From positions 693,253 through 757,252 of the forward strand of contig NZ_JAQNDN010000024.1 of assembly GCF_028369095.1 (NCBI RefSeq): a stretch of DNA of 64,000 nucleotides. The letters run 5' to 3'. The notes under the pieces are model-generated. The model was not told the DNA's origin. It saw only the letters and a list, made by a program, of their open reading frames with translations, and searched no databases. Position numbers and translations under genes: made by a program. This document shows positions 9,012 through 63,939 of the stretch, one piece after another. The first letter of the stretch is position 1. The number at the start of each line of letters is the position of its first letter. This DNA is from Nannocystis radixulma (GTDB lineage: Bacteria; Myxococcota_A; Polyangia; Nannocystales; Nannocystaceae).

Positions 9012-9057
9012 TCTACCTTTCACCGGCGCGGACTTTGATGATTGCCCCGGTCCGATG

Positions 9058-14663: not shown

Positions 14664-14670
14664 GCCGAGC

Positions 14671-17054: not shown

Positions 17055-17285
17055 ATGCGCGACGACGAGACGGATGACACCCGGCGTTACGAGGTGGTTT
17101 TCAACCACGAGGAGCAGTACTCGATTTGGCCCGCCGACCGCGAAGTGCCGGTCGGATGGCGCAAGGCGGGCAAGAATGGCACCAAGCAAGAGTGCCTCGC
17201 CTACATCGATCAAGTGTGGACCGACATGCGGCCGCTGTCCTTGCGGCTCGCCATGGCAAAGGCCGCGGAAGACCAGAACGGCTGA
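17055..17285 (+). CDS. MbtH-like protein (NRPS A-domain chaperone)
   Basis: [39 protein letters not shown]...[18 protein letters not shown] shows the invariant MbtH signature NxExQYSxWP...GW...CL.YI...WTDxRP. The start is the internal ATG at 17055, preceded by an AGGAAC RBS. Confidence 0.85.
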
Positions 17286-17321
17286 GCCCGCTCGGCCAGC
17301 GGCGTACGACGGCATCGATTC

Positions 17322-18956: not shown

Positions 18957-18996
18957 CCTGTTCAGGACGATCGATGTCGGGCGCGCCGTGCTCATC

Positions 18997-51483: not shown

Positions 51484-52263
51484 TCAGGTGCCGAGGACCG
51501 AGCCGCCGTCGACGCTCAAAGTGGCGCCGGTGATGAAGCTCGACTTCTCGTCGGCGAGGAAGAGGTAGGCGCGAGCGATGTCGTCGGGCTGACCCGCGCG
51601 CCCGACCGGCGTATGCTCGATCATCGACTGCAGGACCTTCTCCGGGATGCTCTTGACCATGTCGGTCGAGATGAAACCCGGGGCGACGACGTTGGCGGTG
51701 ATGCCGTAACGGCCGAGCTCGCGCGCCCATACGCGCGTCATGCCGATCACGCCGGCCTTGGCGGCGACGTAGTTGGTCTGGCCGAAGTTGCCGTAGAGGG
51801 CGACGACCGAGCTGGTGCTGATGATGCGGCCGTACTTCTGGGCGATCATGGTCGGCACGACCGCCTGGGTGCAGTTGAACACGCCCTTGAGGCAGACATC
51901 GAGGACGAACTGGAACTGCTCGGCGCTCATCTGGCCGACCACCTGTCCGTCCTTGACCTTGACCAGCTGGCCGTCGCGGACGACCCCGGCGTTGTTGATG
52001 AGGACGTCGATGCGGCCGAACCGCTCGACCACGGCGGCGGCCGCGGCGACGCAGTCCTCGGGCTTGGTGACGTCGACCTTGCGGGCGATGGCGACGCCGC
52101 CGGCGGCGGTGATCGCGGACACGACCTCCTCGGCTGCCTGTTCGGCCAGGTCCCACACGGCGACGGCGTAGCCGGCGTCGGCGAGCATGCGGGCGGTGGC
52201 GCGGCCGATGCCGTTGCCGCCGCCGGTGACGATGGCGATCCGCGGTGAATTGGTGCTTGTCAT
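51484..52263 (-). CDS. SDR-family 3-oxoacyl-ACP reductase (FabG-like)
   Basis: Start MTSTNSPRIAIVTGGGNGIGRATA gives the TGxxxGIG Rossmann motif. The catalytic NNAG and YxxxK (NYVAAKAGV) are present. The N-terminal 166 aa of the listed ORF are an artefact. Confidence 0.8.
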   Translation of the reverse strand: MTSTNSPRIAIVTGGGNGIGRATARMLADAGYAVAVWDLAEQAAEEVVSAITAAGGVAIARKVDVTKPEDCVAAAAAVVERFGRIDVLINNAGVVRDGQLVKVKDGQVVGQMSAEQFQFVLDVCLKGVFNCTQAVVPTMIAQKYGRIISTSSVVALYGNFGQTNYVAAKAGVIGMTRVWARELGRYGITANVVAPGFISTDMVKSIPEKVLQSMIEHTPVGRAGQPDDIARAYLFLADEKSSFITGATLSVDGGSVLGT

Positions 52264-52435
52264 GGGGCGGCGAGCGTACGAGAGGCCGCCGGAGCCGCCT
52301 GCACCAAGAGCCAGCCCGAAGATGTGAGCTTGCGCCGTGTCGGTGGGGCAAAGCACGCTCCGCTCGGGCGTCCACGGAGGGGGAAGGGCGAGGCTTGTCG
52401 TGTCCCGGGCGATCCCCGTAGGATGCGCCGACCCC

Positions 52436-52726
52436 ATGACAGATGCCGCCCCGCCCGACGCGCTGGTCCGCGAGATCAAGGAGCTCATCATCGAGGCCCT
52501 GATGCTGCAGGACATGACCCCCGAGGACATCGACCCCGAGGCGCCGCTGCTGGTCGAGGGGCTGGGCCTCGATTCGATCGACGTGCTCGAGCTGGCGATG
52601 GCGATCGGCAAGAAGTACGGGGTCAAGACCAAGGCCGACGACGCGCAGAACCGGCACATCTTCGCCAGCGTGACCAACCTGGCCCGCTTCGTCGCCGAGC
52701 AACGGGCGGCCGCGGCGGCCAGCTGA
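52436..52726 (+). CDS. Acyl carrier protein
   Basis: GLDSIDVLEL is the phosphopantetheine-attachment Ser motif. The protein is 96 aa and acidic. It is divergent from fabG. Confidence 0.8.
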   Translation: MTDAAPPDALVREIKELIIEALMLQDMTPEDIDPEAPLLVEGLGLDSIDVLELAMAIGKKYGVKTKADDAQNRHIFASVTNLARFVAEQRAAAAAS

Positions 52727-52738
52727 GACCAGGCGGCC

Positions 52739-53392
52739 GTGATGGCGGACCCTGACGGCAAGCCGCAGCGGGCCGCGGGGGTCCCGAGGTGGCTCCCGGC
52801 GGTGTTCCGTTCGCTGCTGGTCGGCGGCTACCCGCTGGTGGTGTACCTCGGGATGACGCGCTGGAGCCCGCGCACGCTGGCGCTGGTGCTCGCCTGCGCG
52901 CTGCTGCCGGGGCTCGTGCTGCGCCTGCGCGAGGCCCGGCGCGAGGACCTGTGGCCGGTGCTGCGGGTGCCGCTGTCGCTCCTCGGGCTGTTCGCGGCGG
53001 CGGCGCTGTCGGGCGAGCAGCGGCTGTTCATGGCCCTGCCGGTGCTGGTCAACCTGGGGCTCCTGGCCAACTTCGCGGCCAGCCTGCGCGGGCCGGTGTC
53101 GCTGGTCGAGCGGTTCGCGCGGCTGCAGGAGCCCGAGCTGCCGCCCGGCGGGCCGGCTTACTGCCGCAAGGTCACGGTGGTCTGGTGCGGGTTCTTCGTC
53201 GCCAACGCGGCCGTCAGCGCCGCGCTCGCGCTGTGGGCCCCTGTGGCCTGGTGGACGCTGTACACCGGACTTTTGGCGTACCTGCTGATCGGGGTAATGT
53301 TCACCGTCGAGTACATCGTCCGCAAGGCGACCTTCCGCCGGTTCGGCGACGCGTTGCCCGACCGCTTGCTCCGCCGTCTGCTCCGCGCATGA
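52739..53392 (+). CDS. Integral membrane protein of the lipid-pigment operon, hypothetical
   Basis: It has 5-6 TM helices. Its stop overlaps the next start (ATGA at 53389-53392). Confidence 0.5.
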   Translation: MMADPDGKPQRAAGVPRWLPAVFRSLLVGGYPLVVYLGMTRWSPRTLALVLACALLPGLVLRLREARREDLWPVLRVPLSLLGLFAAAALSGEQRLFMALPVLVNLGLLANFAASLRGPVSLVERFARLQEPELPPGGPAYCRKVTVVWCGFFVANAAVSAALALWAPVAWWTLYTGLLAYLLIGVMFTVEYIVRKATFRRFGDALPDRLLRRLLRA

Positions 53393-55242
53393 GGTCCTTC
53401 GTCCCGCTCGTCCACACCGATCCCGCGGCGCGCGTCGCCGTCGGCGAGGCCGGCCCGCGCAGCGCGGGCGAGCTGATGCGCGACGCCAGCCTCGTCGCCG
53501 AGCGCCTGCCGCCGGCGCGGCCCGGCAGCGAGGTGCTGGTGGTCTGTGGCGACCGCTATCACCTGGCGGTCACGGCCCTGGGCGCGTGGCTGCGCGGCCA
53601 CGCGGTCGCGCTGCCGCCGAACGCCCAGCCGGCGGCGGTGCGCGAGCTGGCGGGGCGCGCCGACGTGGTGGCGCTGATCCACGACTCCGATCTGGCCGAT
53701 GCTCAGGACGTCCGCGACTGGCTGTCCGGACATGCCCCTGGGGACATGGTCGATCCGACATGGCCCGAAGCGCTGCCGGCGGACCGGCGGCTGGCGGTCG
53801 TGTACACCTCGGGCAGCACCGGCGACCACCAGCCGTGCGCCAAGACGGCCGGGCAATTGCTCGGCGAGGCGCAGGCGCTGGCGGCCACGTTCGCGCTGGC
53901 GGCCGGCGAGGTGGCGCTGGCGACGGTGCCGCCGTACCACCTCTACGGGCTGCTGTTCGGGGTGCTGGCGCCGCTGGCCGCGGGGGCGGCGTTCGCCCGC
54001 GAGACGCCGCTGCACGCCGAGACGGTGGCGAGGGCGGCGCGCGAGGTCGGGGCGACGGTGCTGATCAGCACGCCGGCGCACCTGCGCGGGCTGACGGTGC
54101 TGCAGCGCGGCGACCTGCCGCCGCTGCGGCGGGTGTTCTCGTCGGGCGCGCCGCTGCCGCGGGCGACCGCGGACGAGCTGCTGGCCCAGCTCGGGCTGGC
54201 GGTGACCGAGGTGTACGGCTCGTCGGAGACCGGCGGGATCGGCTGGCGGCGGCACGAACAGGTCCTCGGGGACATGTCCCCGGAGCCAGCCTGGACGCCG
54301 CTGCCGGGGGTCGCGGTCGAGGTCGCGGCCGAGGGGCGGCTGCTGCTGCGCTCGCCGTTCTTGGCCCCCGACGCGCCGCCGCCGTACCCCTGTGAGGATC
54401 GGGTCGAGCTCGACGCGCGCGGCGGGTTTCACCTGCGCGGGCGGCTCGACGGGGTGGTGAAGGTCGCCGGCAAGCGGGTGGCGGTGGCGGAGGTCGAGCA
54501 GCGGCTGCTGGCGTTGCCGGCGGTGGCCGACGCGGCGGTGGTGGCGATCGAGACGCCTGGCGCCCGCGGGCACGAATTGATGGCCGCGGTGGTGGCCCGC
54601 GACTCGGGTCGCGACGCCAGCGAGCTGGTGGCCGAGCTGCGGCGGGGGCTGCTCCCGTGGTTCGACCCGGTGGTGGTGCCGCGGCGGATCAAGGTGGTGC
54701 CCGCGCTGCCGCGCGAGCCCAACGGCAAGCTGACGAAGCGGCGCCTGCACGCGCTGCTCGGGCTGACGGCGGAGGAGCCGGCCGATGCGGGGCGCGGCGG
54801 ATCGACCGAGCCGACGGCGACCAGGCGCGATGAGCCGCGTACGGGCGGGAACGGAGCTGCGCGTGACTCGGCCGACGCGGGGACGATCGGGTTCGAGCTG
54901 CGCGGGCACGTGCGGGGCGACGCGGGCGACGCGGCGGTGCACGAGGTCGAGGTCGGGGTGCCGGTCGACCTGGCGTTCTTCCGCGGACACTTCGACGGCG
55001 CGCCGGTGCTGCCCGGGGTGGCGCAGCTGACGGCCCTGGTGGTGCCGCAGGTGGCGGCGCTGCGGCCCGAGCTGGGGCGGCTGCGGCAGGCGGCGCGGCT
55101 CAAGTTCACCCGGCCGATCGCGCCGGGCGACGCGCTGGTGCTGCGGCTCGAGGTGCGGGGGACGAGCGTCCGCTTCTCGCTGGCGCGCGCGGGCGAGGTG
55201 GTCACCGCCGGGGCGCTCGAGTACGAGGCGCGCGGTGACTGA
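53389..55242 (+). CDS. AMP-dependent synthetase/ligase fused to a C-terminal hotdog (FabA/FabZ-like) dehydratase
   Basis: The AMP-binding motif is VVYTSGSTGDHQ. The A5 and A8 motifs are YGSSETGG and GRLDGVVKVAGKRVAVAEVE. The C-terminal FFRGHFDGAPVLPGV is a FabZ/FabA-type dehydratase signature. Confidence 0.75.
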   Translation: MRSFVPLVHTDPAARVAVGEAGPRSAGELMRDASLVAERLPPARPGSEVLVVCGDRYHLAVTALGAWLRGHAVALPPNAQPAAVRELAGRADVVALIHDSDLADAQDVRDWLSGHAPGDMVDPTWPEALPADRRLAVVYTSGSTGDHQPCAKTAGQLLGEAQALAATFALAAGEVALATVPPYHLYGLLFGVLAPLAAGAAFARETPLHAETVARAAREVGATVLISTPAHLRGLTVLQRGDLPPLRRVFSSGAPLPRATADELLAQLGLAVTEVYGSSETGGIGWRRHEQVLGDMSPEPAWTPLPGVAVEVAAEGRLLLRSPFLAPDAPPPYPCEDRVELDARGGFHLRGRLDGVVKVAGKRVAVAEVEQRLLALPAVADAAVVAIETPGARGHELMAAVVARDSGRDASELVAELRRGLLPWFDPVVVPRRIKVVPALPREPNGKLTKRRLHALLGLTAEEPADAGRGGSTEPTATRRDEPRTGGNGAARDSADAGTIGFELRGHVRGDAGDAAVHEVEVGVPVDLAFFRGHFDGAPVLPGVAQLTALVVPQVAALRPELGRLRQAARLKFTRPIAPGDALVLRLEVRGTSVRFSLARAGEVVTAGALEYEARGD

Positions 55243-55243
55243 C

Positions 55244-56068
55244 ATGTCCGCAGGGACAGGTGAGAGCGAGATGTCCGAAGGGGCAGCTGAGATGTCTGCC
55301 GGGACAGGCGCGTTCCGGCCGTGCGCGCTGATCCCGACCTACGACAACCCGCTGACGGTCCGCGACGTGGTGCTGCGGGTCAAGGCGCACCTGCCCGACG
55401 TGGTCGTGATCGACGACGGCAGCGGCGAGGCGGGGCGGCAGGCGGTCGCGGCGCTGGGGGCCGAGGGGCTGGCGCAGGTGCGCCGGCGGGCGCAAAACGG
55501 CGGCAAGGGGGCGGCGGTCAAGACCGGGTTCCAGTTCGCGCGCGAGCTCGGCTACACCCACGCGCTGCAGGTCGACGCCGACGGGCAACATGACCTCGGG
55601 GACATTCCGAAATTCCTGGCGACCGCGCGCGAGCGGCCGGACGCGTTGATCCTCGGGGCGCCGGTGTACGACGCGTCGGCGCCGAAGGGGCGGCTGGTCG
55701 CCCGCAAGATCACGCTGTTCTGGACCGACTTCGAGGCCGGCCGCGGGGTCATCACCGATCCGATGTGCGGCTTCCGGGTCTACCCGCTGGACCCCGCGCT
55801 GGCGCTCGGGCGCACCGGCGATCGCATGGACTTCGACATCGAGGTGGCGGTGCGCCTGGTGTGGGCCGGGGTGCCGGTGATCAATCTGCCGACGAAGGTC
55901 CGCTACATCGGCCGCGACGAGGGCGGGGTGTCGCACTTCCGCGTGTTCGGCGACAACCTCAAGATCTCGTGGCTGCACACCCGGCTGTCGTTCCAGCGGG
56001 TGATGGTGCGGCCGTGGGTCAACCTCTACCGCCGCCTGCGGCGCCCGGCGCTGCCGGCCGGCCGCTGA
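55244..56068 (+). CDS. Family-2 glycosyltransferase
   Basis: The GT2 motifs VVVIDDGSGE, a DAD(G)-type region and QxxRW-like are present. The first ATG lies 1 nt after the stop of the upstream gene. Three in-frame ATGs occur within the first 20 codons (see the tandem-repeat finding). Confidence 0.8.
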   Translation: MSAGTGESEMSEGAAEMSAGTGAFRPCALIPTYDNPLTVRDVVLRVKAHLPDVVVIDDGSGEAGRQAVAALGAEGLAQVRRRAQNGGKGAAVKTGFQFARELGYTHALQVDADGQHDLGDIPKFLATARERPDALILGAPVYDASAPKGRLVARKITLFWTDFEAGRGVITDPMCGFRVYPLDPALALGRTGDRMDFDIEVAVRLVWAGVPVINLPTKVRYIGRDEGGVSHFRVFGDNLKISWLHTRLSFQRVMVRPWVNLYRRLRRPALPAGR

Positions 56069-56092
56069 GCGAGAGGACAGGTTCGATCGGCC

Positions 56093-57040
56093 ATGGCGGA
56101 GCAGGCAGGTTCGGAGGGACATGTCCCGGCGATCAGGCCCGACGACGGCGACCGGGCGTGGATGACCCGGCCCGAGCGCGGGACGGTGCTGGGGATCCGG
56201 GCGACGCTGCTGTTCTGCCGGGTGTTCGGGCGGCGGGGCGCGGGCGTGCTGCTGGCCGTGATCACGTTCTACTACGCGCTGTTCGCCGGCAAGGCGCGGC
56301 GGGCCTCGCAGGACTACCTGCGGCGGATCGGCCAGCCGCACGGGTTCTGGGCCAGCTGGCGCCACATCTACACGTTCGCCCGCTGCGCGCTCGACCGCGT
56401 GTTCCTGGTCCGCGGCGAGACCGGGCGGTTCCGCATCACCCACACCGGCATCGAGCACCTGCGAGCGCTGCAGGCCGAGGGGAAGGGGGCGCTGCTGCTC
56501 GGGGCGCACCTCGGCTCGTTCGAGGCGATGCGGGCCAGCAGCGTCGACAAGCGGATCCCGATCCACATCCTCGCGTACTGGCAGAACGCGAAGATGATCA
56601 ACGACTTCCTGCGCACGGTGCAGGCCGACTTCGACGTGCGGGTGATCCCGATCGACCCGCGGGACACGAGCTACATCCTGACCGCCAAGGAGGCGATCGA
56701 GCGCGGGGAGCTGGTGGCGGTGCTCGGCGACCGGGTCGGGGTCAACGACAAGGCCTGCACGGCCGAATTCCTCGGCGCCCCGGCGCGCTTCCCGACCGGG
56801 CCGTACACCCTCGCGGCGCTGCTAAAGTGCCCGATTTACTTGACTTTCGGTCTGTACCACGGGCCCGACCGCTACGATCTTTATTGCGAGCCCTTCGCCG
56901 AACAATTAGAAATGCCCAGGGGCCGCCGCGAGGCGGCCACCGCCGCCCATGTCCAGCGCTACGCCGAACGCCTCGAGCACTACTGCCGCCTCGCGCCGCT
57001 CAACTGGTTCAACTTCTACGAGTTCTGGAGGTCGGAGTGA
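56093..57040 (+). CDS. LpxL/HtrB-type lysophospholipid (lipid A-like) acyltransferase
   Basis: An N-terminal TM helix is present. The HX4D-type acyltransferase core is LLLGAHLGSFEAM. Size is 315 aa and the architecture is that of lauroyl/myristoyl-acyltransferases. Confidence 0.75.
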   Translation: MAEQAGSEGHVPAIRPDDGDRAWMTRPERGTVLGIRATLLFCRVFGRRGAGVLLAVITFYYALFAGKARRASQDYLRRIGQPHGFWASWRHIYTFARCALDRVFLVRGETGRFRITHTGIEHLRALQAEGKGALLLGAHLGSFEAMRASSVDKRIPIHILAYWQNAKMINDFLRTVQADFDVRVIPIDPRDTSYILTAKEAIERGELVAVLGDRVGVNDKACTAEFLGAPARFPTGPYTLAALLKCPIYLTFGLYHGPDRYDLYCEPFAEQLEMPRGRREAATAAHVQRYAERLEHYCRLAPLNWFNFYEFWRSE

Positions 57041-58566
57041 GTAGCGCGCGGGTGCTGCTCGTCGGTCCGCAAGGCCTCGGCCTCGGCGAGGTGGTGGAGC
57101 TGGCCGAAGGGACAGCTTTTCCGGCGCTCGACGACGCGCCGGAGTACCGGGCGCTGCTGGCCCGCGGCGCCGATCACCTGGCGCGCCGGCTGGCCGCGGG
57201 CGAGGTGGTGTACGGGGTCACGACCGGGTTCGGCGACTCGTGCGAGACGGCGGTGCCGGCCGAGCACGTGGCGGCGATGCCGGTCAACCTGATGCGCTTC
57301 CACGGCTGCGGTACCGGGCGGATCCTCGACGAGGTCGAGGCCGCGGCGGTGGTGGCGGTGCGCCTGGTCGCGCTGGCGCGCGGCTGGTCGGGCGTGCGCA
57401 TCGAGGTGCTCGAGCGGTTGTGCGACCTGCTCCGGCACCGGCTGTTGCCGCGGATCCCGGCCGAGGGCTCGGTCGGGGCCAGCGGCGACCTGACGCCGCT
57501 GTCGTACGTGGTCGCGGCGCTGGTCGGCGAGCGCGAGGTCTGGTTCAAGGGACAGGTGGTCCCGGCAGCCGAGGCGCTGCGCGCGGCCGGGATCCCGCCG
57601 CTGACGCTGCAGCCCAAGGAGAGCCTGGCGCTGATGAACGGGACCAGCGTCATGGTCGGGCTCGGTTGCCTGGCGTTCGCCCGCGCGCGGCGGTTGGCGC
57701 GCCTGTGCGCGGCGCTGACGGCGATGGGCAGCGACGTCCTGGGCGGCAACCCCGCTCACTTCGACGACCGCATCTTCGCCGCCAAGCCGCACCCGGGCCA
57801 GAGGGCCTGCGCGCAGTGGATCCGCGAGGATATCGAGTACCCGCGGCCGGCCGCCCCCGCGCGCATCCAGGACCGCTACTCGATCCGCTGCGCGCCGCAC
57901 GTGATCGGCGTCCTTCTCGACGCGCTACCCTGGGTGCAGCAGTGGCTCGAGATCGAGATCGTCGGCGCCAACGACAACCCGCTGGTCGACCCGGAGACCG
58001 GCGAGGTGCTGCACGGCGGCAACTTCTACGGCGGCCACGCCTGCTTCGCGCTCGACGCCCTGAAGACGGCGGTGGCCAACCTGGCCGACCTGGTCGATCG
58101 CCAGATCGCGCTGGTGTGCAACCCCGACACGAATGCGGGCCTCCCCGCCAACCTGGTCGGGCGGACGGGCCCCGATCGGGCGGCCCACCACGGCTTCAAG
58201 GCGATGCAGATCTCGGCGTCGGCGCTGGCGGCCGAGGCGTTGAAGCTGACGATGCCGGCCAGCGTCTTCAGCCGCTCCACCGAATGCCACAACCAGGACA
58301 AGGTGAGCATGGGCACGATCGCGGCGCGCGACTGCCTGCGGATCGTCGAGCTGACCGAGACGGTCGCGGCGATCGGGCTGCTCACCATGTGCCAGGCGGT
58401 CGACCTGCGCTCGGGTCACAACATCCACGCGCGCGCGCGGACGCTCCACGCGGCGGTCCGCGCCGCGGTGCCGATGGTCGACGCCGACCGCCGCCAGGAC
58501 CACGACATCGCCGCGGTGCTGGGGCTGCTCCGCGCCGGCGCGCTGCCGATCGGAGCGCTGCCGTGA
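57037..58566 (+). CDS. Aromatic amino-acid ammonia-lyase (HAL/PAL/TAL family, MIO cofactor)
   Basis: The MIO-forming Ala-Ser-Gly triad is in SVGASGDLTPLS. The selectivity dyad position reads NLMRFHGCGTG, giving Phe-His (HAL is Ser-His, TAL His-Leu, PAL Phe-Leu). The GTG start overlaps the upstream stop (GTGA), and GGAGG lies 6 nt upstream. Confidence 0.85.
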   Translation: MSSARVLLVGPQGLGLGEVVELAEGTAFPALDDAPEYRALLARGADHLARRLAAGEVVYGVTTGFGDSCETAVPAEHVAAMPVNLMRFHGCGTGRILDEVEAAAVVAVRLVALARGWSGVRIEVLERLCDLLRHRLLPRIPAEGSVGASGDLTPLSYVVAALVGEREVWFKGQVVPAAEALRAAGIPPLTLQPKESLALMNGTSVMVGLGCLAFARARRLARLCAALTAMGSDVLGGNPAHFDDRIFAAKPHPGQRACAQWIREDIEYPRPAAPARIQDRYSIRCAPHVIGVLLDALPWVQQWLEIEIVGANDNPLVDPETGEVLHGGNFYGGHACFALDALKTAVANLADLVDRQIALVCNPDTNAGLPANLVGRTGPDRAAHHGFKAMQISASALAAEALKLTMPASVFSRSTECHNQDKVSMGTIAARDCLRIVELTETVAAIGLLTMCQAVDLRSGHNIHARARTLHAAVRAAVPMVDADRRQDHDIAAVLGLLRAGALPIGALP

Positions 58567-58967
58567 GCCGCCTGCACGAGGTCTCGGTCGAGTTCGAGGT
58601 CCCGTTCCACGACGTCGACATCCTCAACATCGTCTGGCACGGGCACTACTACAAGTACATGGAGATCGGTCGGACCGCGCTGATGCGCGCGCGCGGGCTC
58701 GACATCGAGGACATCCGCCGCGCGGGCTACGCCCAGCTGCTGGTCGACAGCCACTGCCGCTACACCTACCCGCTGCGCTACGCCGACCGCGCCCGCGTCG
58801 ACGCGTGGTTCGTGTCGGTGACGCCGCGGCTGGTCATCGCCTACCGGATCCGCAACCTCAAGGACGACCGCTGCTCGGCCCGCGGGCAGACGATCCTCGT
58901 CACGACCGACCAAGAAGGTCGCCTCTTGCCGGAGACGCCCGATGCGCTGCTCAAGTACCTGGTGTAG
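58563..58967 (+). CDS. 4HBT/YbgC-type hotdog acyl-CoA thioesterase
   Basis: 134 aa. FEVPFHDVDILNIVWHGHYYKYMEIGR matches the YbgC/4HBT consensus with a catalytic Asp in HDVD. The GTG start overlaps the lyase stop. Confidence 0.75.
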   Translation: MSRLHEVSVEFEVPFHDVDILNIVWHGHYYKYMEIGRTALMRARGLDIEDIRRAGYAQLLVDSHCRYTYPLRYADRARVDAWFVSVTPRLVIAYRIRNLKDDRCSARGQTILVTTDQEGRLLPETPDALLKYLV

Positions 58968-58989
58968 CCAGCTCAGGTCCCAGTTGTCC

Positions 58990-59700
58990 GTGCGGACAGG
59001 TCTGTTCGGACATGTCCTTGCGGTCATGGTCGTCATGACCGGTTCGATCGGCCAGGCGGGCGCGACCGACCCGTTGCCGGTGGCCGCCGCGCCGGTGGCG
59101 GCCGCGTTGACGCTCGATCAGCTGCTCGGCCGGTTCGCCGGGATGAGCGGGCTGCAGGCGGCGTTCCGCGAGGAGAAGCGGATGGCCCTGCTGGCGGCGC
59201 CGCTGGTCAACGAGGGCACGATCTACTTCGTGCCCAACGGCAAGAAGTCGCGCCTGGCCCGGCACACGGCCAAGCCGGCGCGCTCGGTGGTGGTGATCGA
59301 CGGCTCGGCGCTGCGCATGGCCGACGACGCCGGGCGCGAGGAGATTTCGCTCGACAAGAGCCCGGCGGTGCGGCTGTTCGTCGACTCGTTCGTCAGGATC
59401 TTCGCCGGCGACGGCGAGGCGCTGGCGACGATGTACGCGATGGAGCTCAAGTCCGAGGGCCAGCGCTGGACGCTGAAGCTGAAGCCTAAGCTGGCGCCGC
59501 TCGACAAGCTGATCGAGCGGGTCGAGATCGCCGGCGAGGGGGTCGTGATCGCGACGATGCGCGTGGTCGAGATCGGCGGCGACGAGGCGGTCACCACGTT
59601 CTCGGCCGTCGACCCGCAGCGCAAGTTCACCGCCGAGGAGCAGACGACGCTGTTCAGCCTGCCGCCGAAGCCGGCCGCGCCGCCGCCGGCGGGCCGCTGA
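58990..59700 (+). CDS. LolA-like outer-membrane lipoprotein carrier protein
   Basis: The GTG start gives MRTGLFGHVLAVMVVMTGSIGQAGA, a signal peptide. The LolA-like fold cues are LQAAFREEKRMALLAAPLVNEGTIYFVPNGKKSRL. The 5' boundary is uncertain; the alternative ATG is at 58942. Confidence 0.55.
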   Translation: MRTGLFGHVLAVMVVMTGSIGQAGATDPLPVAAAPVAAALTLDQLLGRFAGMSGLQAAFREEKRMALLAAPLVNEGTIYFVPNGKKSRLARHTAKPARSVVVIDGSALRMADDAGREEISLDKSPAVRLFVDSFVRIFAGDGEALATMYAMELKSEGQRWTLKLKPKLAPLDKLIERVEIAGEGVVIATMRVVEIGGDEAVTTFSAVDPQRKFTAEEQTTLFSLPPKPAAPPPAGR

Positions 59701-59756
59701 CGCGGCGTCCGGCGGATGGACCTGTCTGACAAAACCTGGCTGATGGGACCTGCCTG

Positions 59757-62144
59757 ATGGAACCTGGTCGAGCGGACAGGGCGAGCGCGTGGCGGGCGGG
59801 CCTCGGCGCGGCGCTGGTGGCCGGGCTGGCGGCGTTCTGCGTGCTGCGCCTGCAGGTGGTCACCGACATCACCGCGTTCATGGCCGACGTCGCCGACCCC
59901 AAGCTGGCGGCGCTGTCGCGCGGGATGGCCAGCTCGGAGCTGACGCGCACGCTGGTGCTGTCGGTCAGCGACGAGCAGGGCGATCCGGACGTCGCCATCG
60001 CCGGGGCGCAGGCGCTGGCCGACCGGCTGCAGACCCGCTCCGAGGTGGCGTGGCTGCGCACCGGGCCGGGCGAGCTGCACGCCGAGGCGATCCACAACCT
60101 GTACTACCCGCGGCGGTTCTTCCTCCTGGCCGACGAGACAGGTGGCCTTCAGGACAGGTTGTCCGACGACGGGCTGCGGGCCGCCGCGCGCGAGCTGCGG
60201 CGCCAGCTCGGCCTGCCGACGTCGGGGGTGATCAAGCAGATCGCGCCGGCCGACCCGCTGCTGGCCTATCCGGCCCAGCTGCGCCGGCTCGAGGCGGCCC
60301 AGGGCGGCGGGGTCGGGCTGCGCGACGGGCACTTCGTGGCCGAGGACCAGCACGCGCTGGTGATGCTGGCGACCCGCAGCTCGCCGTTCGACGCCGCCGA
60401 TCAGGCGCCGCTGCAGGCGGCGATCGAGGCGGCGTTCGCCGAGATCGACGCCCAGTCGGGCGGGCGCCTGGTGCTCGAGCAGTCGGGCGTGGCCCGCTTC
60501 GCGCTGGCGTCCGAGCGCAGCATGCGCGAGGACATCGGCCGGATCTCCACCGTCTCGCTGGTCGGCATCGTCGCGCTGTTCCTGCTGATGTTCCGCTCGC
60601 CGCGGCTGGTGCTGCTGTCGCTGGCGCCGCTGGTGGCGGGCGTGGCGGCGGCGCTGGCGGCCTGCCTGGCGCTGTTCGGGTCGGTCCACGGGCTGACGCT
60701 GGCGTTCGGGGCGACGCTGATCGGGGTGTGCATCGACTACTCCGTGCACCTGTTCAACCACCACATGCTCGACCCGCCGCGCGGCGGGCCGCGGCAGAGC
60801 GCGCGGCGGATCTGGCCGGGCCTGTTGCTCGGGGCGCTGACGACGGTGGCGGGCTTCGCCGGGCTGGCGTGGACCAGCTTCCCCGGGCTGCGCGAGGTGG
60901 CGCTGTTCGCCTCGATCGGGGTGCTGGTGGCCGCCCTGGCGACGCGCTACTGGCTACCTGAACTTTTGCCCATGTCCCCGAAGCCAGGGTGGATCCAGCG
61001 CCGGGCGGCGGCCGGGCTGGCGCGGATGGTCGCGGCGATGCGACGGCGGCGCTCGGCGGTGGCGGTGCTGCCGGCGGCGGCGCTCGGGCTGTGCGTGGTC
61101 GGGCTGCCGCGCATCGAGTTCTCCGACGACGTGCGCCGGCTGACGGCGCTCGACCCGGAGATGCTGGAGGAGGACGAGCGGGTGCGGGCGCGGGTGTCGC
61201 GGATGGACGGCGGGCGCTTCGTGGTCGCGTTCGGGGCCGACGAGGAGGCGGCGCTGGCCGGCAACGACGCGGTCGCGGTCCGCCTGCGCGCGGCCCAGGC
61301 GGCCGGCGAGGTCGAGGCGTTCCGCAGCCTGCACGCGCTGGTGTGGTCGGAGCGGCTGCAGCGCGACAACGCGGCGGCGCTGGCCGACCCGAGCCTGCCG
61401 GCCCGCCTCGACGCGGCGTTCGTGGCCGAGGGCTTCCGCGCCGGCTCGTTCGCCAAGTTCTTTTCGGACATGTCCCATGGGCCAGACCCGATGCGGCCGG
61501 CCGACCTGGCCGCGACGCCGCTGGCCGAGGCGGCGCGGACGTTCCGCGCCGACATCGAGGGCGGCGAGGTGGCGTTGGTGACGCTGCTGCGCGGGGTCGG
61601 CGATGTGGCGGCGCTGCAGGCCCGCCTGGCCGACCTGCCCGACGTGCGCTACTTCGACCAGCAGGGCATGATGCAGGCGGCGTTCGGCCGCTACCGCGCG
61701 CGCACGCTCGAGCTGGTGGTGTTCGGCCTGCTGGCGATGCTCACGACGGTGTGGCTGCGCTACCGCCGGCTCAAGCTGGCGCTGGCGGCGTTCGCCCCGG
61801 CGGTGCTGGCGGCCGCGACGGCGCTGGCGCTGATCGCCCTGAGCGGGGTGACGATCGGGATCCTCCACGCGGTCGCGCTGCTGCTGGTGCTGTGCATGGG
61901 CGTCGACTACGGGGTGTTCCTGGCCGAGAGCCGCCACGACCCGCGGGGCTTCGACGCGACGGTGCTGAGCGTGCTGCTGGCCTGTCTGACGACGGTGCTG
62001 GCGTTCGGGCTGCTGGCGATGTCGGCCAGCCCGGCGCTGCAGGCGATCGGCGTCACCGTCGGCCTCGGGGTGCTGCTCAGCCTGGTGCTGGCGCCGGCCG
62101 CCCTGGTGCTGGCGGGCGCTGGCGAGGGGAAGGACCACGGATGA
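59757..62144 (+). CDS. MMPL/RND-superfamily exporter, a putative lipid-pigment transporter
   Basis: 795 aa. Two 6-TM bundles are each preceded by a large periplasmic loop, which is the MMPL topology. Confidence 0.8.
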   Translation: MEPGRADRASAWRAGLGAALVAGLAAFCVLRLQVVTDITAFMADVADPKLAALSRGMASSELTRTLVLSVSDEQGDPDVAIAGAQALADRLQTRSEVAWLRTGPGELHAEAIHNLYYPRRFFLLADETGGLQDRLSDDGLRAAARELRRQLGLPTSGVIKQIAPADPLLAYPAQLRRLEAAQGGGVGLRDGHFVAEDQHALVMLATRSSPFDAADQAPLQAAIEAAFAEIDAQSGGRLVLEQSGVARFALASERSMREDIGRISTVSLVGIVALFLLMFRSPRLVLLSLAPLVAGVAAALAACLALFGSVHGLTLAFGATLIGVCIDYSVHLFNHHMLDPPRGGPRQSARRIWPGLLLGALTTVAGFAGLAWTSFPGLREVALFASIGVLVAALATRYWLPELLPMSPKPGWIQRRAAAGLARMVAAMRRRRSAVAVLPAAALGLCVVGLPRIEFSDDVRRLTALDPEMLEEDERVRARVSRMDGGRFVVAFGADEEAALAGNDAVAVRLRAAQAAGEVEAFRSLHALVWSERLQRDNAAALADPSLPARLDAAFVAEGFRAGSFAKFFSDMSHGPDPMRPADLAATPLAEAARTFRADIEGGEVALVTLLRGVGDVAALQARLADLPDVRYFDQQGMMQAAFGRYRARTLELVVFGLLAMLTTVWLRYRRLKLALAAFAPAVLAAATALALIALSGVTIGILHAVALLLVLCMGVDYGVFLAESRHDPRGFDATVLSVLLACLTTVLAFGLLAMSASPALQAIGVTVGLGVLLSLVLAPAALVLAGAGEGKDHG

Positions 62145-62785
62145 ACCTTCGGGCATGGTCGATCGGGCATGTCGTCGGGGTCATGCTCCTGGGGGCATGC
62201 TCCAAGGGGCAGCAGGCCGAAGCGGCGCCGCCGCGGGAGCTGCGCGACGCCGACTACCCGGGGGCGCTGGCGACGACGCTGGCCGGGCCCGACTTCATGG
62301 CCCGCCAGCGCCTGCACGGCACGGCCCGCGGGCGCGAGATCGGCGGCGAGGTGGTGCTGCAGAAGCAGGGGGACGCGCTGACGCTGGTCGGGCTGACGCC
62401 GTTCGCGACCAAGGCGTTCGTGGCCAAGCAGCAGGGCGCCGAGGTGAAGATCGAGGTGTTCGCGCCGGAGGGCAAGCTGCCGTTCCCGCCGCGCTTTATG
62501 CTGCTCGACGTGCACCGCGTGCAGTTCCTCGGGCTGCCGGGGGCGCCGCTGCCCGACGGGACGCACACGGGCGAGGTCGGCGACGAGCGGGTGACCGAGG
62601 TGTGGCAGGGCGGGGCGCTGCTCGAGCGCCGCTTCGAGCGCAAGGACGGCAAGCCGGCCGGCGCGATCGTCATCACCTACGAGGGCGGGATGAAGGACGG
62701 GGCGTTGCCGGCGCGCGTGCGCCTCGACAACGGGTGGTTCGGCTACCAGATCGCGGTCGAGACGCTGCAGTGGCAACCGCTGTGA
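62141..62785 (+). CDS. Lipoprotein, DUF3261-like, as found in aryl-polyene clusters
   Basis: MNLRAWSIGHVVGVMLLGAC is a signal peptide with lipobox. The ATG overlaps the MMPL stop (ATGA). Confidence 0.5.
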   Translation: MNLRAWSIGHVVGVMLLGACSKGQQAEAAPPRELRDADYPGALATTLAGPDFMARQRLHGTARGREIGGEVVLQKQGDALTLVGLTPFATKAFVAKQQGAEVKIEVFAPEGKLPFPPRFMLLDVHRVQFLGLPGAPLPDGTHTGEVGDERVTEVWQGGALLERRFERKDGKPAGAIVITYEGGMKDGALPARVRLDNGWFGYQIAVETLQWQPL

Positions 62786-63939
62786 TCTCGCGGCGCGGCC
62801 TTCTCGGGCTGCTGGCGGCGGCGGCGTGCCGGCCCGACCCGCGTGATCCGCAGTGCCGGCGGGCGGTCGACTACGTGGGCGCGCCGTGGAAGGACGCGCC
62901 GGCGTCGCTGCTCGACGGGCGCCAGGCGGGGACGATCGACGGGGCGCTGGCCCCGGAGCTGGTGGCGCGGCTCGAGGCGCGGCTCGACGCGGTGATCGAG
63001 GGGTCGAAGGCGCCGGCGATCTCTGCCGCCTACGCGGTGCCGGGGGACGGGATGTGGACGGCCACGCGCGGGCTCGCGTGCGCGGAGCCGGCGACGCCGG
63101 TGACAGGCGACGCGAAGTTCCAGGCGTGCAGCATCGGCAAGCTGATCACGGCGGTCTTGGTGCTGCGACTGTGCGAGCGCGGGGTCCTGTCGCGCGAGAC
63201 GTCGATCGCCAAGTGGTTCCCGCGCTACCCGAACGTGACGATCGATCACCTGCTGACGCACACGAGCGGGATCTACAGCTTCAACAGCGACCCGAACTTC
63301 GAGCGCGAGCTCGCGGTGTACCGCTCGCCGGAGGAGTTGATCGAGGAGTCGGCGCGGCACGCCGACCTGTTCTGCCCGGGCGCGACGTGGTCCTACTCCA
63401 ATACCGGCTACGTGATGCTGGGGATGATCGTCGAGCGCTGTCACGATCGCCCGCTGGCGGATGTGGTCGCGGCCGAGGTGGCGACGCCGCTGGGGCTGCG
63501 GGGCCTGGTGGCCCAGCGGCCGGGCGTGGCGGTTCCGGGGCTGGTGCGGGGGCATCGCCAGCGGGCGCCGCTGGGCGAGACGCACTACGAGGTGCCGCAC
63601 GGGGCGGGCTCGATCGCCAGCGGGGCCGACGAACTGGTGCGGGTGCTGCACGCGGTGCTGGCGGGTCGGCTGGTCGGAGCGGCGTCGCTGGCGGCGATGC
63701 TGCGCGACATGGCGCCGATGTTCGACGACCCGGCGCTGCGCTACGGGCGGGGGATGATGCTGTACGAGGCAGCGGGCGGGCCGGGGCTGATGGTCGGTCA
63801 CAGCGGCGGCGCGCCGGGCTTCCGGGCGATCGTGGCCTATCTGCCCGCCGAGCCGGCGTTCGTCGCGGTGATGATCAACGACGAACGACCGGCCGAGGCC
63901 GGGCTGTGGGCGCTGGTGCAGGCGGCCCGCGGCGCCTGA
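62782..63939 (+). CDS. Serine hydrolase of the beta-lactamase/penicillin-binding family, Tat/lipo signal
   Basis: ISRRGLLGLLAAAAC is a Tat signal with lipobox. The SxxK active site is SIGKLI, with YSN (YSNTGY) and HSGG (KTG-like) motifs. The GTG start overlaps the upstream stop. Confidence 0.7.
   Translation: MISRRGLLGLLAAAACRPDPRDPQCRRAVDYVGAPWKDAPASLLDGRQAGTIDGALAPELVARLEARLDAVIEGSKAPAISAAYAVPGDGMWTATRGLACAEPATPVTGDAKFQACSIGKLITAVLVLRLCERGVLSRETSIAKWFPRYPNVTIDHLLTHTSGIYSFNSDPNFERELAVYRSPEELIEESARHADLFCPGATWSYSNTGYVMLGMIVERCHDRPLADVVAAEVATPLGLRGLVAQRPGVAVPGLVRGHRQRAPLGETHYEVPHGAGSIASGADELVRVLHAVLAGRLVGAASLAAMLRDMAPMFDDPALRYGRGMMLYEAAGGPGLMVGHSGGAPGFRAIVAYLPAEPAFVAVMINDERPAEAGLWALVQAARGA

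What the first reader, a model, noticed from the sequence alone, without database searches (positions are those of the whole stretch)
51484..63939. Aryl-polyene/xanthomonadin-like lipid-pigment operon with a MIO ammonia-lyase but no ketosynthase in the window
The gene content and order match APE/DAR-type clusters. FabG and ACP are divergent. A membrane protein, an AMP-ligase::dehydratase fusion, GT2, LpxL-type acyltransferase, thioesterase, LolA-like, MMPL, DUF3261-like lipoprotein and a serine hydrolase follow, all chained by ATGA/GTGA overlaps. The ammonia-lyase would supply a cinnamate- or coumarate-type aryl starter, as in flexirubin DarA. Its selectivity dyad reads Phe-His, which is neither the HAL Ser-His, the PAL Phe-Leu nor the TAL His-Leu. 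The KS and CLF genes required for polyene extension are not present in 49-64 kb, so they lie elsewhere or beyond the window end.
Basis: partly seen in the sequence, partly recalled or inferred. Interest (0 to 1): 0.6.

Follow-up and report, generated by a model that had tools for sequence, protein, structure and literature searches.

The report
Half of a split aryl-polyene cluster
This stretch of a Nannocystis (myxobacterium) genome carries the starter-loading, lipid-anchoring and export half of the widespread aryl-polyene pigment-lipid pathway, while the chain-building genes lie over a megabase away in sequenced relatives: an unusual layout of an ordinary system.

Summary
Window 52436-62785 (+) encodes an ApeE-type ACP, an ApeG-like membrane protein, an AMP-ligase::ApeI-dehydratase fusion, GT2, an LpxL-family acyltransferase, a MIO ammonia-lyase, a 4HBT thioesterase, LolA-like, MMPL and DUF3261 proteins. 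This order is collinear with complete aryl-polyene (APE) clusters of Ralstonia, Acinetobacter baumannii, Pseudoalteromonas and other Nannocystaceae. No ketosynthase exists anywhere in the 64 kb.

The missing genes do not lie beyond the window end. In four sequenced Nannocystis species the cluster stops at DUF3261. In N. exedens and N. pusilla a separate locus carries ApeO-KS, ApeC-CLF, ApeP-DH, ApeQ-KR and an FAD oxidoreductase. In N. exedens it lies more than 1.4 Mb from the lyase locus.

ApeR, ApeF, ApeD, ApeA and ApeB were not found. These are the genes whose deletion leaves E. coli pigmented.

The divergent FabG is not the pathway reductase, because it lacks the ApeQ signature. The beta-lactamase-fold gene is a species-specific add-on.

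The Phe-His dyad is real but not peculiar to this window. [F/Y/L]-His plus HNQD marks the whole APE-associated lyase clade. The enzyme is not a histidase; tyrosine is the likelier substrate but this is unproven.

Verdict: a new layout variant of a known system, of moderate-low interest.

The parts
52436..52726 (+). ApeE-type starter acyl carrier protein (96 aa); phosphopantetheine Ser47 in DSID, nt 52571-52582
   Evidence: PF00550 1.8e-9. NF006617 scores 105.6 bits against a cut-off of 70. 52.6% identical to E. coli CFT073 ApeE; no hit to ApeF. Orthologous to the first of the two tandem ACPs in Enhygromyxa, Plesiocystis and Nannocystaceae bacterium ST9 (56-67% id).
52742..53392 (+). ApeG-like integral membrane protein (216 aa, about 5 hydrophobic segments)
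   Evidence: No Pfam hit. tblastn: 39% id to E. coli ApeG at E 4e-21 and 44% to the Ralstonia counterpart. Hydropathy.
53389..55242 (+). ApeH::ApeI fusion: aryl-acid adenylating/ACP-loading ligase (aa 1-450) plus hotdog dehydratase domain (aa 520-600)
   Evidence: PF00501 1.3e-30, PF13193 1.3e-12, FabA 1.4e-6, ApeI-like 9.4e-6. Best NCBIfam hit is TIGR02372, 145 bits, below its cut-off. Hits E. coli ApeH at 1e-24 and ApeI at 2e-8. Motifs YTSGSTG, PNGK and GHFDGAPVLPG are intact.
55244..56068 (+). GT2 glycosyltransferase, the N-terminal half of ApeJ
   Evidence: PF00535 2.4e-13. Together with the next gene it matches E. coli ApeJ residues 5-550 at E 1e-108, 37% id. DAD motif.
56093..57040 (+). 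LpxL-superfamily acyltransferase, the C-terminal half of ApeJ
   Evidence: PF03279 5.2e-12. It scores far below the LpxL equivalog cut-offs, 18 bits against 298. HX4E motif HLGSFE.
57037..58566 (+). MIO-dependent aromatic amino-acid ammonia-lyase of the APE-associated clade (509 aa). Dyad Phe88-His89, nt 57298-57303. MIO Ala-Ser-Gly, nt 57478-57486. HNQD, nt 58288-58299.
   Evidence: PF00221 8.6e-159. Below every NCBIfam equivalog cut-off: BagA/FevW 465 against 1000, hutH 410 against 539, FlxA 310 against 700, PAL 306 against 519. Alignment to RsTAL and HAL, to SgTAM. Clade-wide motif.
58563..58967 (+). ApeK-type 4HBT/YbgC-family thioesterase
   Evidence: PF13279 5.5e-13. 33.6% id to E. coli ApeK at E 8e-22.
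58942..59700 (+). ApeL-type LolA-like periplasmic carrier (start uncertain, 58942 or about 59026)
   Evidence: PF19574 LolA_3 2.5e-11. E. coli ApeL at E 4e-11.
59757..62144 (+). ApeM-type MMPL/RND-superfamily exporter (795 aa)
   Evidence: PF03176 1.8e-11. HAE3 TIGR00921 2e-24. E. coli ApeM at E 1e-33.
62141..62785 (+). ApeN-type DUF3261 (LolB-like) lipoprotein; lipobox LLGAC at aa 16-20
   Evidence: PF11659 1.2e-9. Lipobox. Same position in all related clusters.
62782..63939 (+). Beta-lactamase-fold serine hydrolase, a predicted exported lipoprotein (SRRGLLGLLAAAAC; SIGK, YSN, HSG). Accessory, not a conserved cluster member.
   Evidence: PF00144 1.9e-50. Motifs. Present only here and in N. 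punicea FL3; absent after DUF3261 in N. exedens, N. pusilla, N. bainbridge and RBIL2.
51484..52263 (-). Divergently transcribed FabG-like SDR. Probably a neighbour, not the pathway ketoreductase.
   Evidence: PF13561 8e-65. 34% id to E. coli ApeQ, against 52% for the Nannocystis second-locus KR. Has APGF and GNFGQ and a 9-aa insert where ApeQ-type KRs have APGL and GNRGQ. Absent from KS-less loci L015, L016, L018-L020 and L039.

Best explanation
The window holds the initiation, lipid-anchoring and export half of an aryl-polyene (APE) pathway that is split over two chromosomal loci in Nannocystis.

Proposed steps (all inferred; none was assayed):
1. The MIO lyase deaminates an aromatic amino acid, most likely L-tyrosine to p-coumarate and less likely L-phenylalanine to cinnamate.
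2. The ApeH domain adenylates the aryl acid and loads it on the single ApeE-type ACP.
3. ApeO-ApeC (KS-CLF), ApeQ (KR) and ApeP, which pairs with the ApeI domain fused to ApeH, extend the aryl-acyl-ACP into a polyene. These four proteins are encoded at the second locus. Malonyl units would come from the housekeeping ACP and FabD, or from ApeE.
4. The ApeK thioesterase, the GT2 and the LpxL-type acyltransferase (a split ApeJ) attach the chain to a membrane glycolipid anchor.
5. ApeG, ApeM (MMPL), ApeL (LolA-like) and ApeN (DUF3261) carry it to the outer membrane.

Shown here: homology, gene order, intact motifs, absence of KS in the window, and existence and conservation of the second locus in congeners. 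Inferred: every enzymatic step, the lyase substrate, and the presence of the second locus in the source strain.
For: - Domain content.
- Collinearity with complete lyase-bearing APE clusters in Ralstonia, A. baumannii and Pseudoalteromonas, and in Enhygromyxa, Plesiocystis and Nannocystaceae bacterium ST9.
- Direct hits to E. coli CFT073 ApeE, G, H, I, J, K, L and M in the window, and to ApeC, O and Q in N. exedens locus 2.
- None of the 15 loci with a lyase at least 71% identical has a KS in the fetched flanks. 42 of the 65 more distant loci do.
- The second locus, SHMT | KS-CLF-ApeP-KR-FAD oxidoreductase, is present in N. pusilla and in N. exedens. In N. exedens it lies at 9.96 Mb and the lyase locus at 0.11 Mb of one 11.27-Mb contig. 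It is also present in metagenomic relatives with 72-73% KS identity.
- The KS is 92-96% conserved among Nannocystis species and keeps the Cys-His-His triad.
- The second locus has no ACP or ligase of its own, and the window has no KS, KR or ApeP. Each locus lacks what the other carries.
- ApeO-ApeC alone makes the full polyene in vitro and binds ACP1 tightly (PMC8358021).
- In E. coli, deletion of apeR, apeF, apeD, apeA or apeB leaves pigment production (PMC8253772).
- ApeH and ApeP are used together in A. baumannii assays, and FabG cannot replace ApeQ (PMC8041823).
Against: - The source strain's own second locus cannot be seen from a 64-kb window. The window is only about 90% identical in DNA to every sequenced species.
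- No expression or product data exist.
- ApeF, ApeR and ApeD were not searched genome-wide, so they may exist elsewhere.
- The ApeI-like Pfam hit is just under its cut-off (26.3 against 28.5 bits).
- Tyrosine as substrate is weakly supported. The switch position is Phe, and an RsTAL His89Phe change gives PAL activity (Watts 2006, as cited in PMC9002059).
- The TIGR02372 4-coumarate-ligase hit is also the best hit of E. coli ApeH, which uses 4-HBA. That hit is therefore not specific evidence for coumarate.
Confidence: 0.75

Rival explanations
1. The KS-less locus works on its own. The lyase plus ligase make coumaroyl- or cinnamoyl-ACP, which is transferred without extension to a lipid anchor and exported. 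The product would be an aryl-acryloyl (monoene) outer-membrane lipid rather than a polyene. The distant KS module would serve something else.
For: - The locus is self-contained for starter supply, activation, carrier, release, transfer and export.
- It has lost the malonyl-carrying ApeF-type ACP, the ApeR KS and the ApeD acyltransferase.
- It lies more than 1.4 Mb from the KS module.
- The lyase already supplies one double bond.
Against: - The KS-CLF-ApeP-KR module has no ACP or loading enzyme of its own. It is conserved in the same genomes with an intact catalytic triad.
- The window retains the ApeI dehydratase domain. Its known partner ApeP sits at the other locus (PMC8041823).
- The missing genes are the dispensable ones in E. 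coli (PMC8253772, PMC8358021).
Confidence: 0.12
2. A generic lipid A or ornithine-lipid modification operon with a true histidase.
For: - The acyltransferase is in the lipid A acyltransferase Pfam family.
- JGI annotates the homologous lyases as histidine ammonia-lyase.
- The HAL models score 410-418 bits.
Against: - The lyase is below the hutH cut-offs (410 against 539; 418 against 524).
- It has Phe, not Ser, before the His. It has Gln (HNQD) where HAL has the imidazole-binding Glu (QED).
- No hut genes are nearby.
- The acyltransferase scores 18 bits against the LpxL cut-off of 298.
- The whole gene order matches APE clusters.
Confidence: 0.02
3. A decaying remnant: an APE cluster that lost its KS genes and no longer makes anything.
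For: Loss of KS, CLF, DH, KR, the second ACP and ApeD from the locus, relative to other Nannocystaceae.
Against: - All catalytic motifs are intact, and third-position GC is 0.94-0.98 throughout.
- The same 10-gene block is kept across at least six Nannocystis species and in relatives down to 71% lyase identity.
- Protein identity (94-95%) exceeds DNA identity (about 90-91%).
- The lost genes were relocated, not deleted.
Confidence: 0.05

Closest known systems
E. coli CFT073 APE_Ec cluster (apeA-apeR, c1186-c1204), the genetically dissected aryl-polyene cluster
   Same: Homologues of ApeE, G, H, I, J, K, L and M, in the same order, plus DUF3261 in the ApeN position. ApeO, C, P and Q homologues lie at the Nannocystis second locus.
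   Different: - The E. coli cluster is one contiguous operon with no lyase. Its starter is 4-HBA from UbiC (PMC8253772).
- Nannocystis adds a MIO lyase between ApeJ and ApeK.
- Nannocystis fuses H with I and splits J into two genes.
- It lacks A, B, D, F and R at both loci.
- It keeps O, C, P and Q more than 1 Mb away.
Lyase-bearing complete APE clusters (Ralstonia solanacearum megaplasmid, A. baumannii, Pseudoalteromonas; Enhygromyxa salina and Plesiocystis pacifica among Nannocystaceae)
   Same: The order ACP-G-ligase(::DH)-GT-AT-lyase-TE-LolA-MMPL-(DUF3261) is identical. Lyases are 57-68% identical with the same [F/Y]-His-Gly-Cys-Gly and STE[C/S]HNQDKVSMG motifs. The APE BGC was already reported for Enhygromyxa and Plesiocystis (PMC6226438). 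An ammonia lyase has been called a characteristic APE gene (PMC8719888).
   Different: Those clusters continue directly into KS-(CLF)-DH-KR-KS and carry CLF, an ApeD-type acyltransferase and a second ACP. The Nannocystis clade has none of these at this locus.
Flexirubin pathway (FlxA tyrosine ammonia-lyase, FlxB, LolA2) of Bacteroidota
   Same: An MIO lyase supplies an aryl-acrylate starter to a type II FAS/PKS-like polyene pathway that has LolA-like transport proteins.
   Different: Scores are far below the NCBIfam equivalog cut-offs: FlxA 310 against 700, FlxB 192 against 340, LolA2_flexi 37 against 125. From my own knowledge, FlxA-type TALs have the His-Leu dyad. No dialkylresorcinol (DarA/DarB) genes were seen.
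Characterised MIO enzymes: RsTAL (2O6Y), HAL (1B8F, 6V6H), SgTAM (2OHY), cyanobacterial PAL (2NYN)
   Same: Same fold family and the same catalytic Tyr, MIO triad, Asn, Tyr and Arg. The second dyad residue is His, as in HAL and in the tyrosine-specific SgTAM.
   Different: It is roughly equally distant from all of them (223-250 bits). The HNQD motif is PAL/TAL-like, not the HAL QED.

Membership tests
Aryl-polyene (APE) biosynthetic gene cluster family | ApeH-type aryl-acid:ACP ligase next to an ApeE-type starter ACP | tested here: met
   ACP passes NF006617 at 105.6 bits against a cut-off of 70 and is 52.6% identical to ApeE. The ligase hits ApeH at 1e-24.
Aryl-polyene (APE) biosynthetic gene cluster family | Anchoring and export set: ApeJ (GT + acyltransferase), ApeK, ApeG, ApeL (LolA-like), ApeM (MMPL), ApeN (DUF3261), in conserved order | tested here: met
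   The order is identical to Ralstonia, A. baumannii, Pseudoalteromonas and E. coli.
Aryl-polyene (APE) biosynthetic gene cluster family | KS-CLF heterodimer (ApeO-ApeC) encoded in the cluster | tested here: not met
   No KS or CLF anywhere in the 64 kb. They are present at a separate locus in N. pusilla and N. exedens. The source strain itself cannot be tested.
Aryl-polyene (APE) biosynthetic gene cluster family | ApeQ-type ketoreductase (Leu at the aryl gateway position, Arg patch) and ApeP dehydratase | tested here: not met
   The window FabG has Phe (APGF) and GNFGQ, and no ApeP is present. Both are encoded at locus 2 of congeners. The ApeQ criterion comes from PMC8041823.
Aryl-polyene (APE) biosynthetic gene cluster family | Product is an aryl-polyene carboxylate bound to an outer-membrane lipid | not testable with these tools
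   Needs pigment and lipid chemistry.
Histidine ammonia-lyase (HutH) | Ser-His dyad, imidazole-binding Glu (QED motif), score above the hutH cut-off, hut operon context | tested here: not met
   Phe-His, and HNQD in place of QED. 410 bits against 539. No hut genes nearby.
Tyrosine ammonia-lyase (RsTAL / FlxA / BagA types) | His-Leu selectivity dyad; score above the FlxA or BagA/FevW cut-off | tested here: not met
   Phe88-His89 against RsTAL His89-Leu90. 310 bits against 700 and 465 against 1000. The activity itself was not tested.
Phenylalanine ammonia-lyase | Phe-Leu dyad; score above TIGR01226 | tested here: not met
   The first residue is Phe but the second is His. 306 bits against 519.
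MIO-dependent aromatic amino-acid lyase/aminomutase superfamily (PF00221) | Ala-Ser-Gly MIO triad, catalytic Tyr on the inner loop, conserved Asn, Tyr and Arg | tested here: met
   PF00221 at 530 bits. ASG at aa 148-150, Tyr59, NGTS, YSIRC.
LpxL/LpxM lipid A late acyltransferase | Score above the LpxL/LpxP equivalog cut-off | tested here: not met
   TIGR02207 at 18 bits against 298. Only the superfamily domain PF03279 is matched.
Xanthomonadin cluster | XanB2-type chorismatase supplying 3-HBA/4-HBA; single ACP; halogenated aryl head group | not tested
   No chorismatase-like domain appeared among the Pfam-scanned genes of the window, but no targeted search was made. The single ACP is shared with xanthomonadin clusters (PMC8253772).

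The most novel reading that the evidence does not exclude
There are two non-excluded readings.

(a) The KS-less locus acts alone and decorates the outer membrane with an unextended coumaroyl or cinnamoyl lipid. That would be a new, minimal class of aryl lipid derived from the APE machinery.

(b) The conserved [Phe/Tyr]-His + HNQD lyase clade found in APE clusters has a substrate or regiochemistry outside the His/Phe/Tyr scheme, for example m-tyrosine or DOPA. The clade includes the lyase of the much-studied A. baumannii cluster, whose papers read here use 4-HBA as starter and never mention a lyase. If so, the native starter of many APE pathways would have been mis-assumed.
Probability: 0.12. 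Interest if true: 0.6.

Novelty: new variant of a known kind. Interest (0 to 1): 0.35.

Why it matters
APE clusters are described as the most widespread bacterial biosynthetic gene-cluster family (PMC8253772).

Nannocystis offers a natural minimal version. The retained genes (E, G, H::I, J, K, L, M, N plus O, C, P, Q) include all the genes whose deletion abolished pigment in E. coli, together with J and K, whose deletion only reduced it. The genes not found (A, B, D, F, R) are ones whose deletion leaves pigment. This independently supports that dissection.

The split also has a practical consequence. KS-anchored cluster-detection rules would probably flag only the distant elongation locus and miss this half (my inference; antiSMASH was not run). 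Product prediction for these genomes would then omit the lyase, ligase, anchoring and export genes.

Finally, the APE-associated lyase clade has a conserved, uncharacterised selectivity signature. It occurs in pathogens such as A. baumannii and Ralstonia. A single enzyme assay would settle what starter these pathways really use.

Tried and rejected
1. KS just beyond the window end. Rejected. N. exedens, N. pusilla, N. bainbridge and RBIL2 end the cluster at DUF3261 and have no KS within 10 kb of the lyase gene, about 5.8 kb past the end of DUF3261.

2. The last gene as a mis-called KS. Rejected. It has a beta-lactamase fold with SIGK and YSN motifs.

3. KS domains inside the 5752-aa gene at 19.7-37 kb. 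Rejected. It contains only C, A and T domains.

4. FabG as the pathway KR. Rejected on the ApeQ signature and on synteny.

5. The TIGR02372 4-coumarate-CoA-ligase hit as evidence for a coumarate starter. Weakened by a control: E. coli ApeH, from a lyase-less 4-HBA cluster, has the same best hit. The scores are 75, 84, 95, 115 and 145 bits for E. coli, Pseudoalteromonas, A. baumannii, Ralstonia and the window.

6. My recollection of a characterised 'RmXAL' from Ralstonia metallidurans. Wrong: RmXAL is from the yeast Rhodotorula mucilaginosa.

7. A SwissProt Cupriavidus metallidurans TAL (Q1LRV9, named in PMC9002059) could be relevant. Its sequence could not be obtained, and no Cupriavidus record appeared among the plasmid hits. 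This lead is left open.

8. An exact-sequence look-up of the window's last gene found no source contig.

9. The P0197 'Nannocystis exedens' KS comes from a 2.7-kb hydrothermal-vent MAG contig and is uninformative.

10. Cimermancic 2014, Schoner 2016, Grammbitter 2019 and the SgTAM structure paper are not held in the library. Statements about SgTAM His93 binding the tyrosine hydroxyl, about ApeI:ApeP complex formation and about known APE head groups rest on my own knowledge or on secondary citations.

11. No structure prediction was run. It could not resolve substrate specificity without coordinates.

Full report
SEQUENCE AND GENES

The window has about 72% GC, so most long ORFs are spurious. 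I called coding frames from third-position GC and fixed the starts by inspection. The flagged interval contains one minus-strand gene, 51484-52263, and eleven plus-strand genes from 52436 to 63939.

- SDR/FabG-like, 8e-65
- PP-binding ACP; passes NF006617 at 105.6 bits against a cut-off of 70
- a membrane protein with no Pfam family
- AMP-binding plus AMP-binding_C plus a FabA/ApeI-like hotdog domain, in one 617-aa protein
- GT2
- Lip_A_acyltrans
- Lyase_aromatic, 8.6e-159
- 4HBT
- LolA_3
- MMPL
- DUF3261
- Beta-lactamase fold, 1.9e-50

Catalytic motifs are intact: the ACP DSID, YTSGSTG and PNGK, GHF..P.LPG, DAD, HX4E, the Ala-Ser-Gly MIO triad, and the SxxK, YSN and HSG motifs. Five of the ten junctions are 4-nt overlaps, not all of them.

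NO KETOSYNTHASE IN THE WINDOW

I ran tblastn against the whole 64 kb with these queries:
- E. coli FabF, FabH and FabD
- three Ralstonia APE ketosynthases and the Ralstonia CLF and DH
- E. coli CFT073 ApeC, ApeO, ApeP and ApeR

None gave a hit. Pfam scans of the remaining called genes show ABC/C39/HlyD exporters, GNAT, JmjC, SPFH, DUF6875, a five-module NRPS with C, A and T domains only, a multicopper oxidase, an M16 peptidase, LysR, an epoxide hydrolase and a PDZ protein. None has a KS domain.

SOURCE ORGANISM

The lyase is 93-95% identical to those of Nannocystis punicea, N. exedens, N. pusilla, N. bainbridge and strain RBIL2. The DNA of 49.5-62.8 kb is about 90% identical to each of them and syntenic. 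The source is therefore a Nannocystis of a species distinct from these representatives.

WHAT THE LOCUS IS

The Ralstonia solanacearum megaplasmid carries a lyase 59% identical to the window's, inside a complete APE cluster. Its order is CLF, acyltransferase, ACP, ACP, membrane protein, AMP-ligase (with fused DH), GT/acyltransferase, lyase, thioesterase, LolA, MMPL, KS, DH, FabG2, KS, KS. A. baumannii and Pseudoalteromonas have the same arrangement.

I compared the window with the genetically dissected E. coli CFT073 cluster, located at 1,143,727-1,158,748. The window hits ApeE (53% id), ApeG (39%), ApeH, ApeI (as the C-terminal domain of the ligase), ApeJ (E 1e-108, spanning the window's separate GT2 and acyltransferase genes), ApeK, ApeL and ApeM, all in the same order. 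DUF3261 occupies the ApeN position. E. coli has no lyase. In every lyase-bearing cluster the lyase sits between the ApeJ-type and ApeK-type genes, as it does here.

WHERE THE KS GENES ARE

A scan of one genome per species returned 80 loci that encode relatives of the lyase. I annotated them by tblastn.
- All 15 loci with a lyase at least 71% identical lack any KS in the fetched flanks. These are Nannocystis and its nearest uncultured relatives.
- 13 of those 15 show the same block: ACP-G-ligase::DH-GT2-AT-lyase-TE-LolA-MMPL(-DUF3261).
- Of the 65 more distant loci, 42 show a KS nearby.
- The other cultured Nannocystaceae (Enhygromyxa, Plesiocystis, Nannocystaceae bacterium ST9) continue straight from DUF3261 into KS-CLF-DH-KR-KS and have two tandem ACPs.

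The window's ACP is the orthologue of the first, ApeE-type, ACP.

I used the Enhygromyxa ApeO-type KS as a protein query. It found a 61%-identical KS in N. pusilla. That locus reads SHMT | KS, CLF (Ketoacyl-synt_2), ApeP-like DH, KR, FAD_binding_3/Trp_halogenase-like oxidoreductase. The KS is 92-96% conserved in N. radixulma, N. pusilla and N. exedens. It keeps the Cys-His-His triad and is 41% identical to E. coli ApeO, against 32% to FabF.

In N. exedens DSM 71 the two loci lie at 0.11 Mb and 9.96 Mb of one 11.27-Mb contig. That is at least 1.4 Mb apart even if the contig is circular. The same five-gene module occurs alone in metagenomic relatives with 72-73% KS identity. The split is therefore old within this clade.

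WHAT IS MISSING, AND WHY THAT IS COHERENT

Neither Nannocystis locus shows an ApeR-type KS, an ApeF-type second ACP, an ApeD-type lysophospholipid acyltransferase, ApeA or ApeB.

Published work bears on this:
- In E. coli, the apeR deletion strain still makes the mature APE lipid. The apeF and apeD deletion strains keep partial pigment. The apeA and apeB deletion strains still make APE carboxylic acids (PMC8253772).
- In vitro, ApeO-ApeC alone gives the fully extended polyene and binds ACP1 with about 70 nM affinity (PMC8358021).
- Xanthomonadin clusters also have one ACP (PMC8253772).

The genes Nannocystis retains therefore include all the genes whose deletion abolished pigment in E. coli, together with apeJ and apeK, whose deletion only reduced it. 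Each locus lacks what the other has. Locus 2 has no carrier or loading enzyme. The window has no KS, no ApeQ and no ApeP, yet it keeps the ApeI domain, whose partner is ApeP; ApeH and ApeP are used together in PMC8041823. This is why I prefer cooperation of the two loci over autonomy of the window locus.

THE DIVERGENT FabG AND THE LAST GENE

ApeQ-type reductases from Ralstonia, A. baumannii, Pseudoalteromonas and the Nannocystis second locus share APGL and GNRGQ. The window FabG has APGF and GNFGQ, as E. coli FabG does, plus a 9-residue insert. PMC8041823 reports that this Leu is conserved in ApeQ and that FabG cannot replace ApeQ. The FabG is also absent from the more distant KS-less loci. 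I treat it as a neighbour.

The beta-lactamase-fold gene overlaps DUF3261 by GTGA and carries a lipoprotein-type signal. It is present only here and in N. punicea. I treat it as a species-level accessory of unknown role.

THE LYASE

In the alignment to RsTAL, Phe88 and His89 fall on His89 and Leu90. In the alignment to a HAL they fall on the Ser and His. Where HAL has QED, the window has HNQD, as TAL and PAL do.

All catalytic residues are present. The protein scores below the cut-off of every NCBIfam equivalog: BagA/FevW TAL 465 against 1000, HAL 418 against 524, hutH 410 against 539, TAM 313 against 501, FlxA 310 against 700, PAL 306 against 519. It is about equally distant from all solved MIO enzymes.

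The signature R-[F/Y/L]-H-G-[C/V]-G plus STE[C/S]HNQDKVSMG is shared by:
- 118 of the 120 best database homologues for the dyad motif, and 117 of 120 for STE[C/S]HNQDKVSMG
- the lyases of the 80 genome loci, with few exceptions
- Ralstonia, which has Tyr-His
- A. baumannii and Pseudoalteromonas

So this is the hallmark of an APE-associated clade, not a peculiarity of this window. It is not a histidase.

The substrate is unresolved.
- For Tyr: the second-position His is also found in the tyrosine-specific SgTAM, whose dyad is Ser-His. That this His binds the phenol hydroxyl is my recollection, not checked here. A. baumannii ApeH, from a cluster that has this lyase, loads p-coumarate on ApeE (PMC12624758). 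Known APE head groups are 4-hydroxyphenyl types (my own knowledge).
- For Phe: there is a Phe at the switch position (Watts 2006, as cited in PMC9002059). A ring-hydroxylase/halogenase-like FAD enzyme at locus 2 could add substituents later.
- The ligase's best hit to the 4-coumarate-CoA ligase model is not discriminating, because E. coli ApeH gives the same best hit.
- My estimate is Tyr about 0.55, Phe about 0.3, other about 0.15.

COMPARISON AND NOVELTY

APE clusters are very common. An ammonia lyase has been called a characteristic APE gene (PMC8719888), and APE clusters have been reported in Enhygromyxa and Plesiocystis (PMC6226438). The four held papers that mention both aryl polyenes and Nannocystis came up in one search. 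I read the relevant passages of two; neither describes the split layout.

The window is thus a member of a known system in a new layout: a split, reduced gene set, with H::I fused and J divided. Its lyase belongs to a conserved but biochemically uncharacterised clade. A specialist would find this tidy rather than surprising.

Noticed in passing
window 19701-36959 (-), with 18997-19704 (-) and 17373-18956 (+): A single 5752-aa NRPS gene with about five C-A-T modules and no KS. A DUF6875 gene and an ABC transporter flank it. The product is unknown.
   Followed up: partly
window 889-6867 (-): Three-gene exporter: an ABC ATPase protein, a C39-peptidase ABC transporter and a HlyD-family adaptor. 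This is the type that exports and processes bacteriocins or RiPPs. No precursor gene was looked for.
   Followed up: no
window 49533-51254 (-): A 573-aa protein with no Pfam family. It lies upstream on the opposite strand in most Nannocystis-clade loci and in no locus that carries the complete cluster. Its function, and any link to the pathway, are unknown.
   Followed up: partly
window 8700-13100 and 16000-19000: Stretches with lower GC (0.66-0.68, against 0.70-0.78 elsewhere) and few confident high-GC3 ORFs. Only a DJ-1/PfpI gene at 10296-10988 was recognised. This may be foreign or poorly coding DNA.
   Followed up: partly
L092 (A. baumannii NZ_CP064203.1, lyase at 13992-15467): The A. baumannii APE cluster contains an RFHGCG-type lyase between the ApeJ-type and ApeK-type genes. 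Searches for 'lyase' (and 'ammonia' or 'tyrosine') in two of the three A. baumannii APE papers read here found nothing; all three use 4-HBA or benzoyl starters. The record is a 3.97-Mb sequence labelled as a plasmid in PLSDB.
   Followed up: partly
L011 (Nannocystis sp. MAG JADJRG010000013.1): A lyase 83% identical to the window's lies on a 2.86-Mb contig with none of the other cluster genes within 10 kb. It is either a relocated or second copy, or a further rearrangement.
   Followed up: no
L002 and L033 (MAG JASGHK010000004.1): One Myxococcales MAG has two lyase copies on one contig. One lies in a full APE-type cluster (L033). The other stands alone next to a radical-SAM/B12 gene, an MMPL gene and ACP-like fragments.
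   Followed up: no
L031, L034, L040, L043, L045, L052 (Tepidisphaeraceae/Phycisphaerae); L062, L072, L075, L076, L085 (Xanthobacter); L035, L074 (Acidobacteriota): The same lyase clade occurs in other small architectures, with no LolA/MMPL export genes detected: KR-KS-lyase in planctomycetes, KS-(KR)-KS-ligase next to the lyase in Xanthobacter, and lyase-ligase-KS-FabD-KR in acidobacteria. These may be other aryl-primed pathways.
   Followed up: no
L088 14510-15760; L089 14625-15875; L094 5143-6291; L095 14484-15647: A 380-416-aa Cys-rich predicted lipoprotein with no confident Pfam family always follows the FAD oxidoreductase of the separate elongation module. It may belong to the pathway.
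   Followed up: no
window 37498-39333 (-), 39880-41427 (-), 42389-45097 (+): A multicopper oxidase, a 515-aa protein with very high GC and no Pfam hit, and a 902-aa tandem M16 peptidase. The region 40-46 kb has strong positive GC skew.
   Followed up: no
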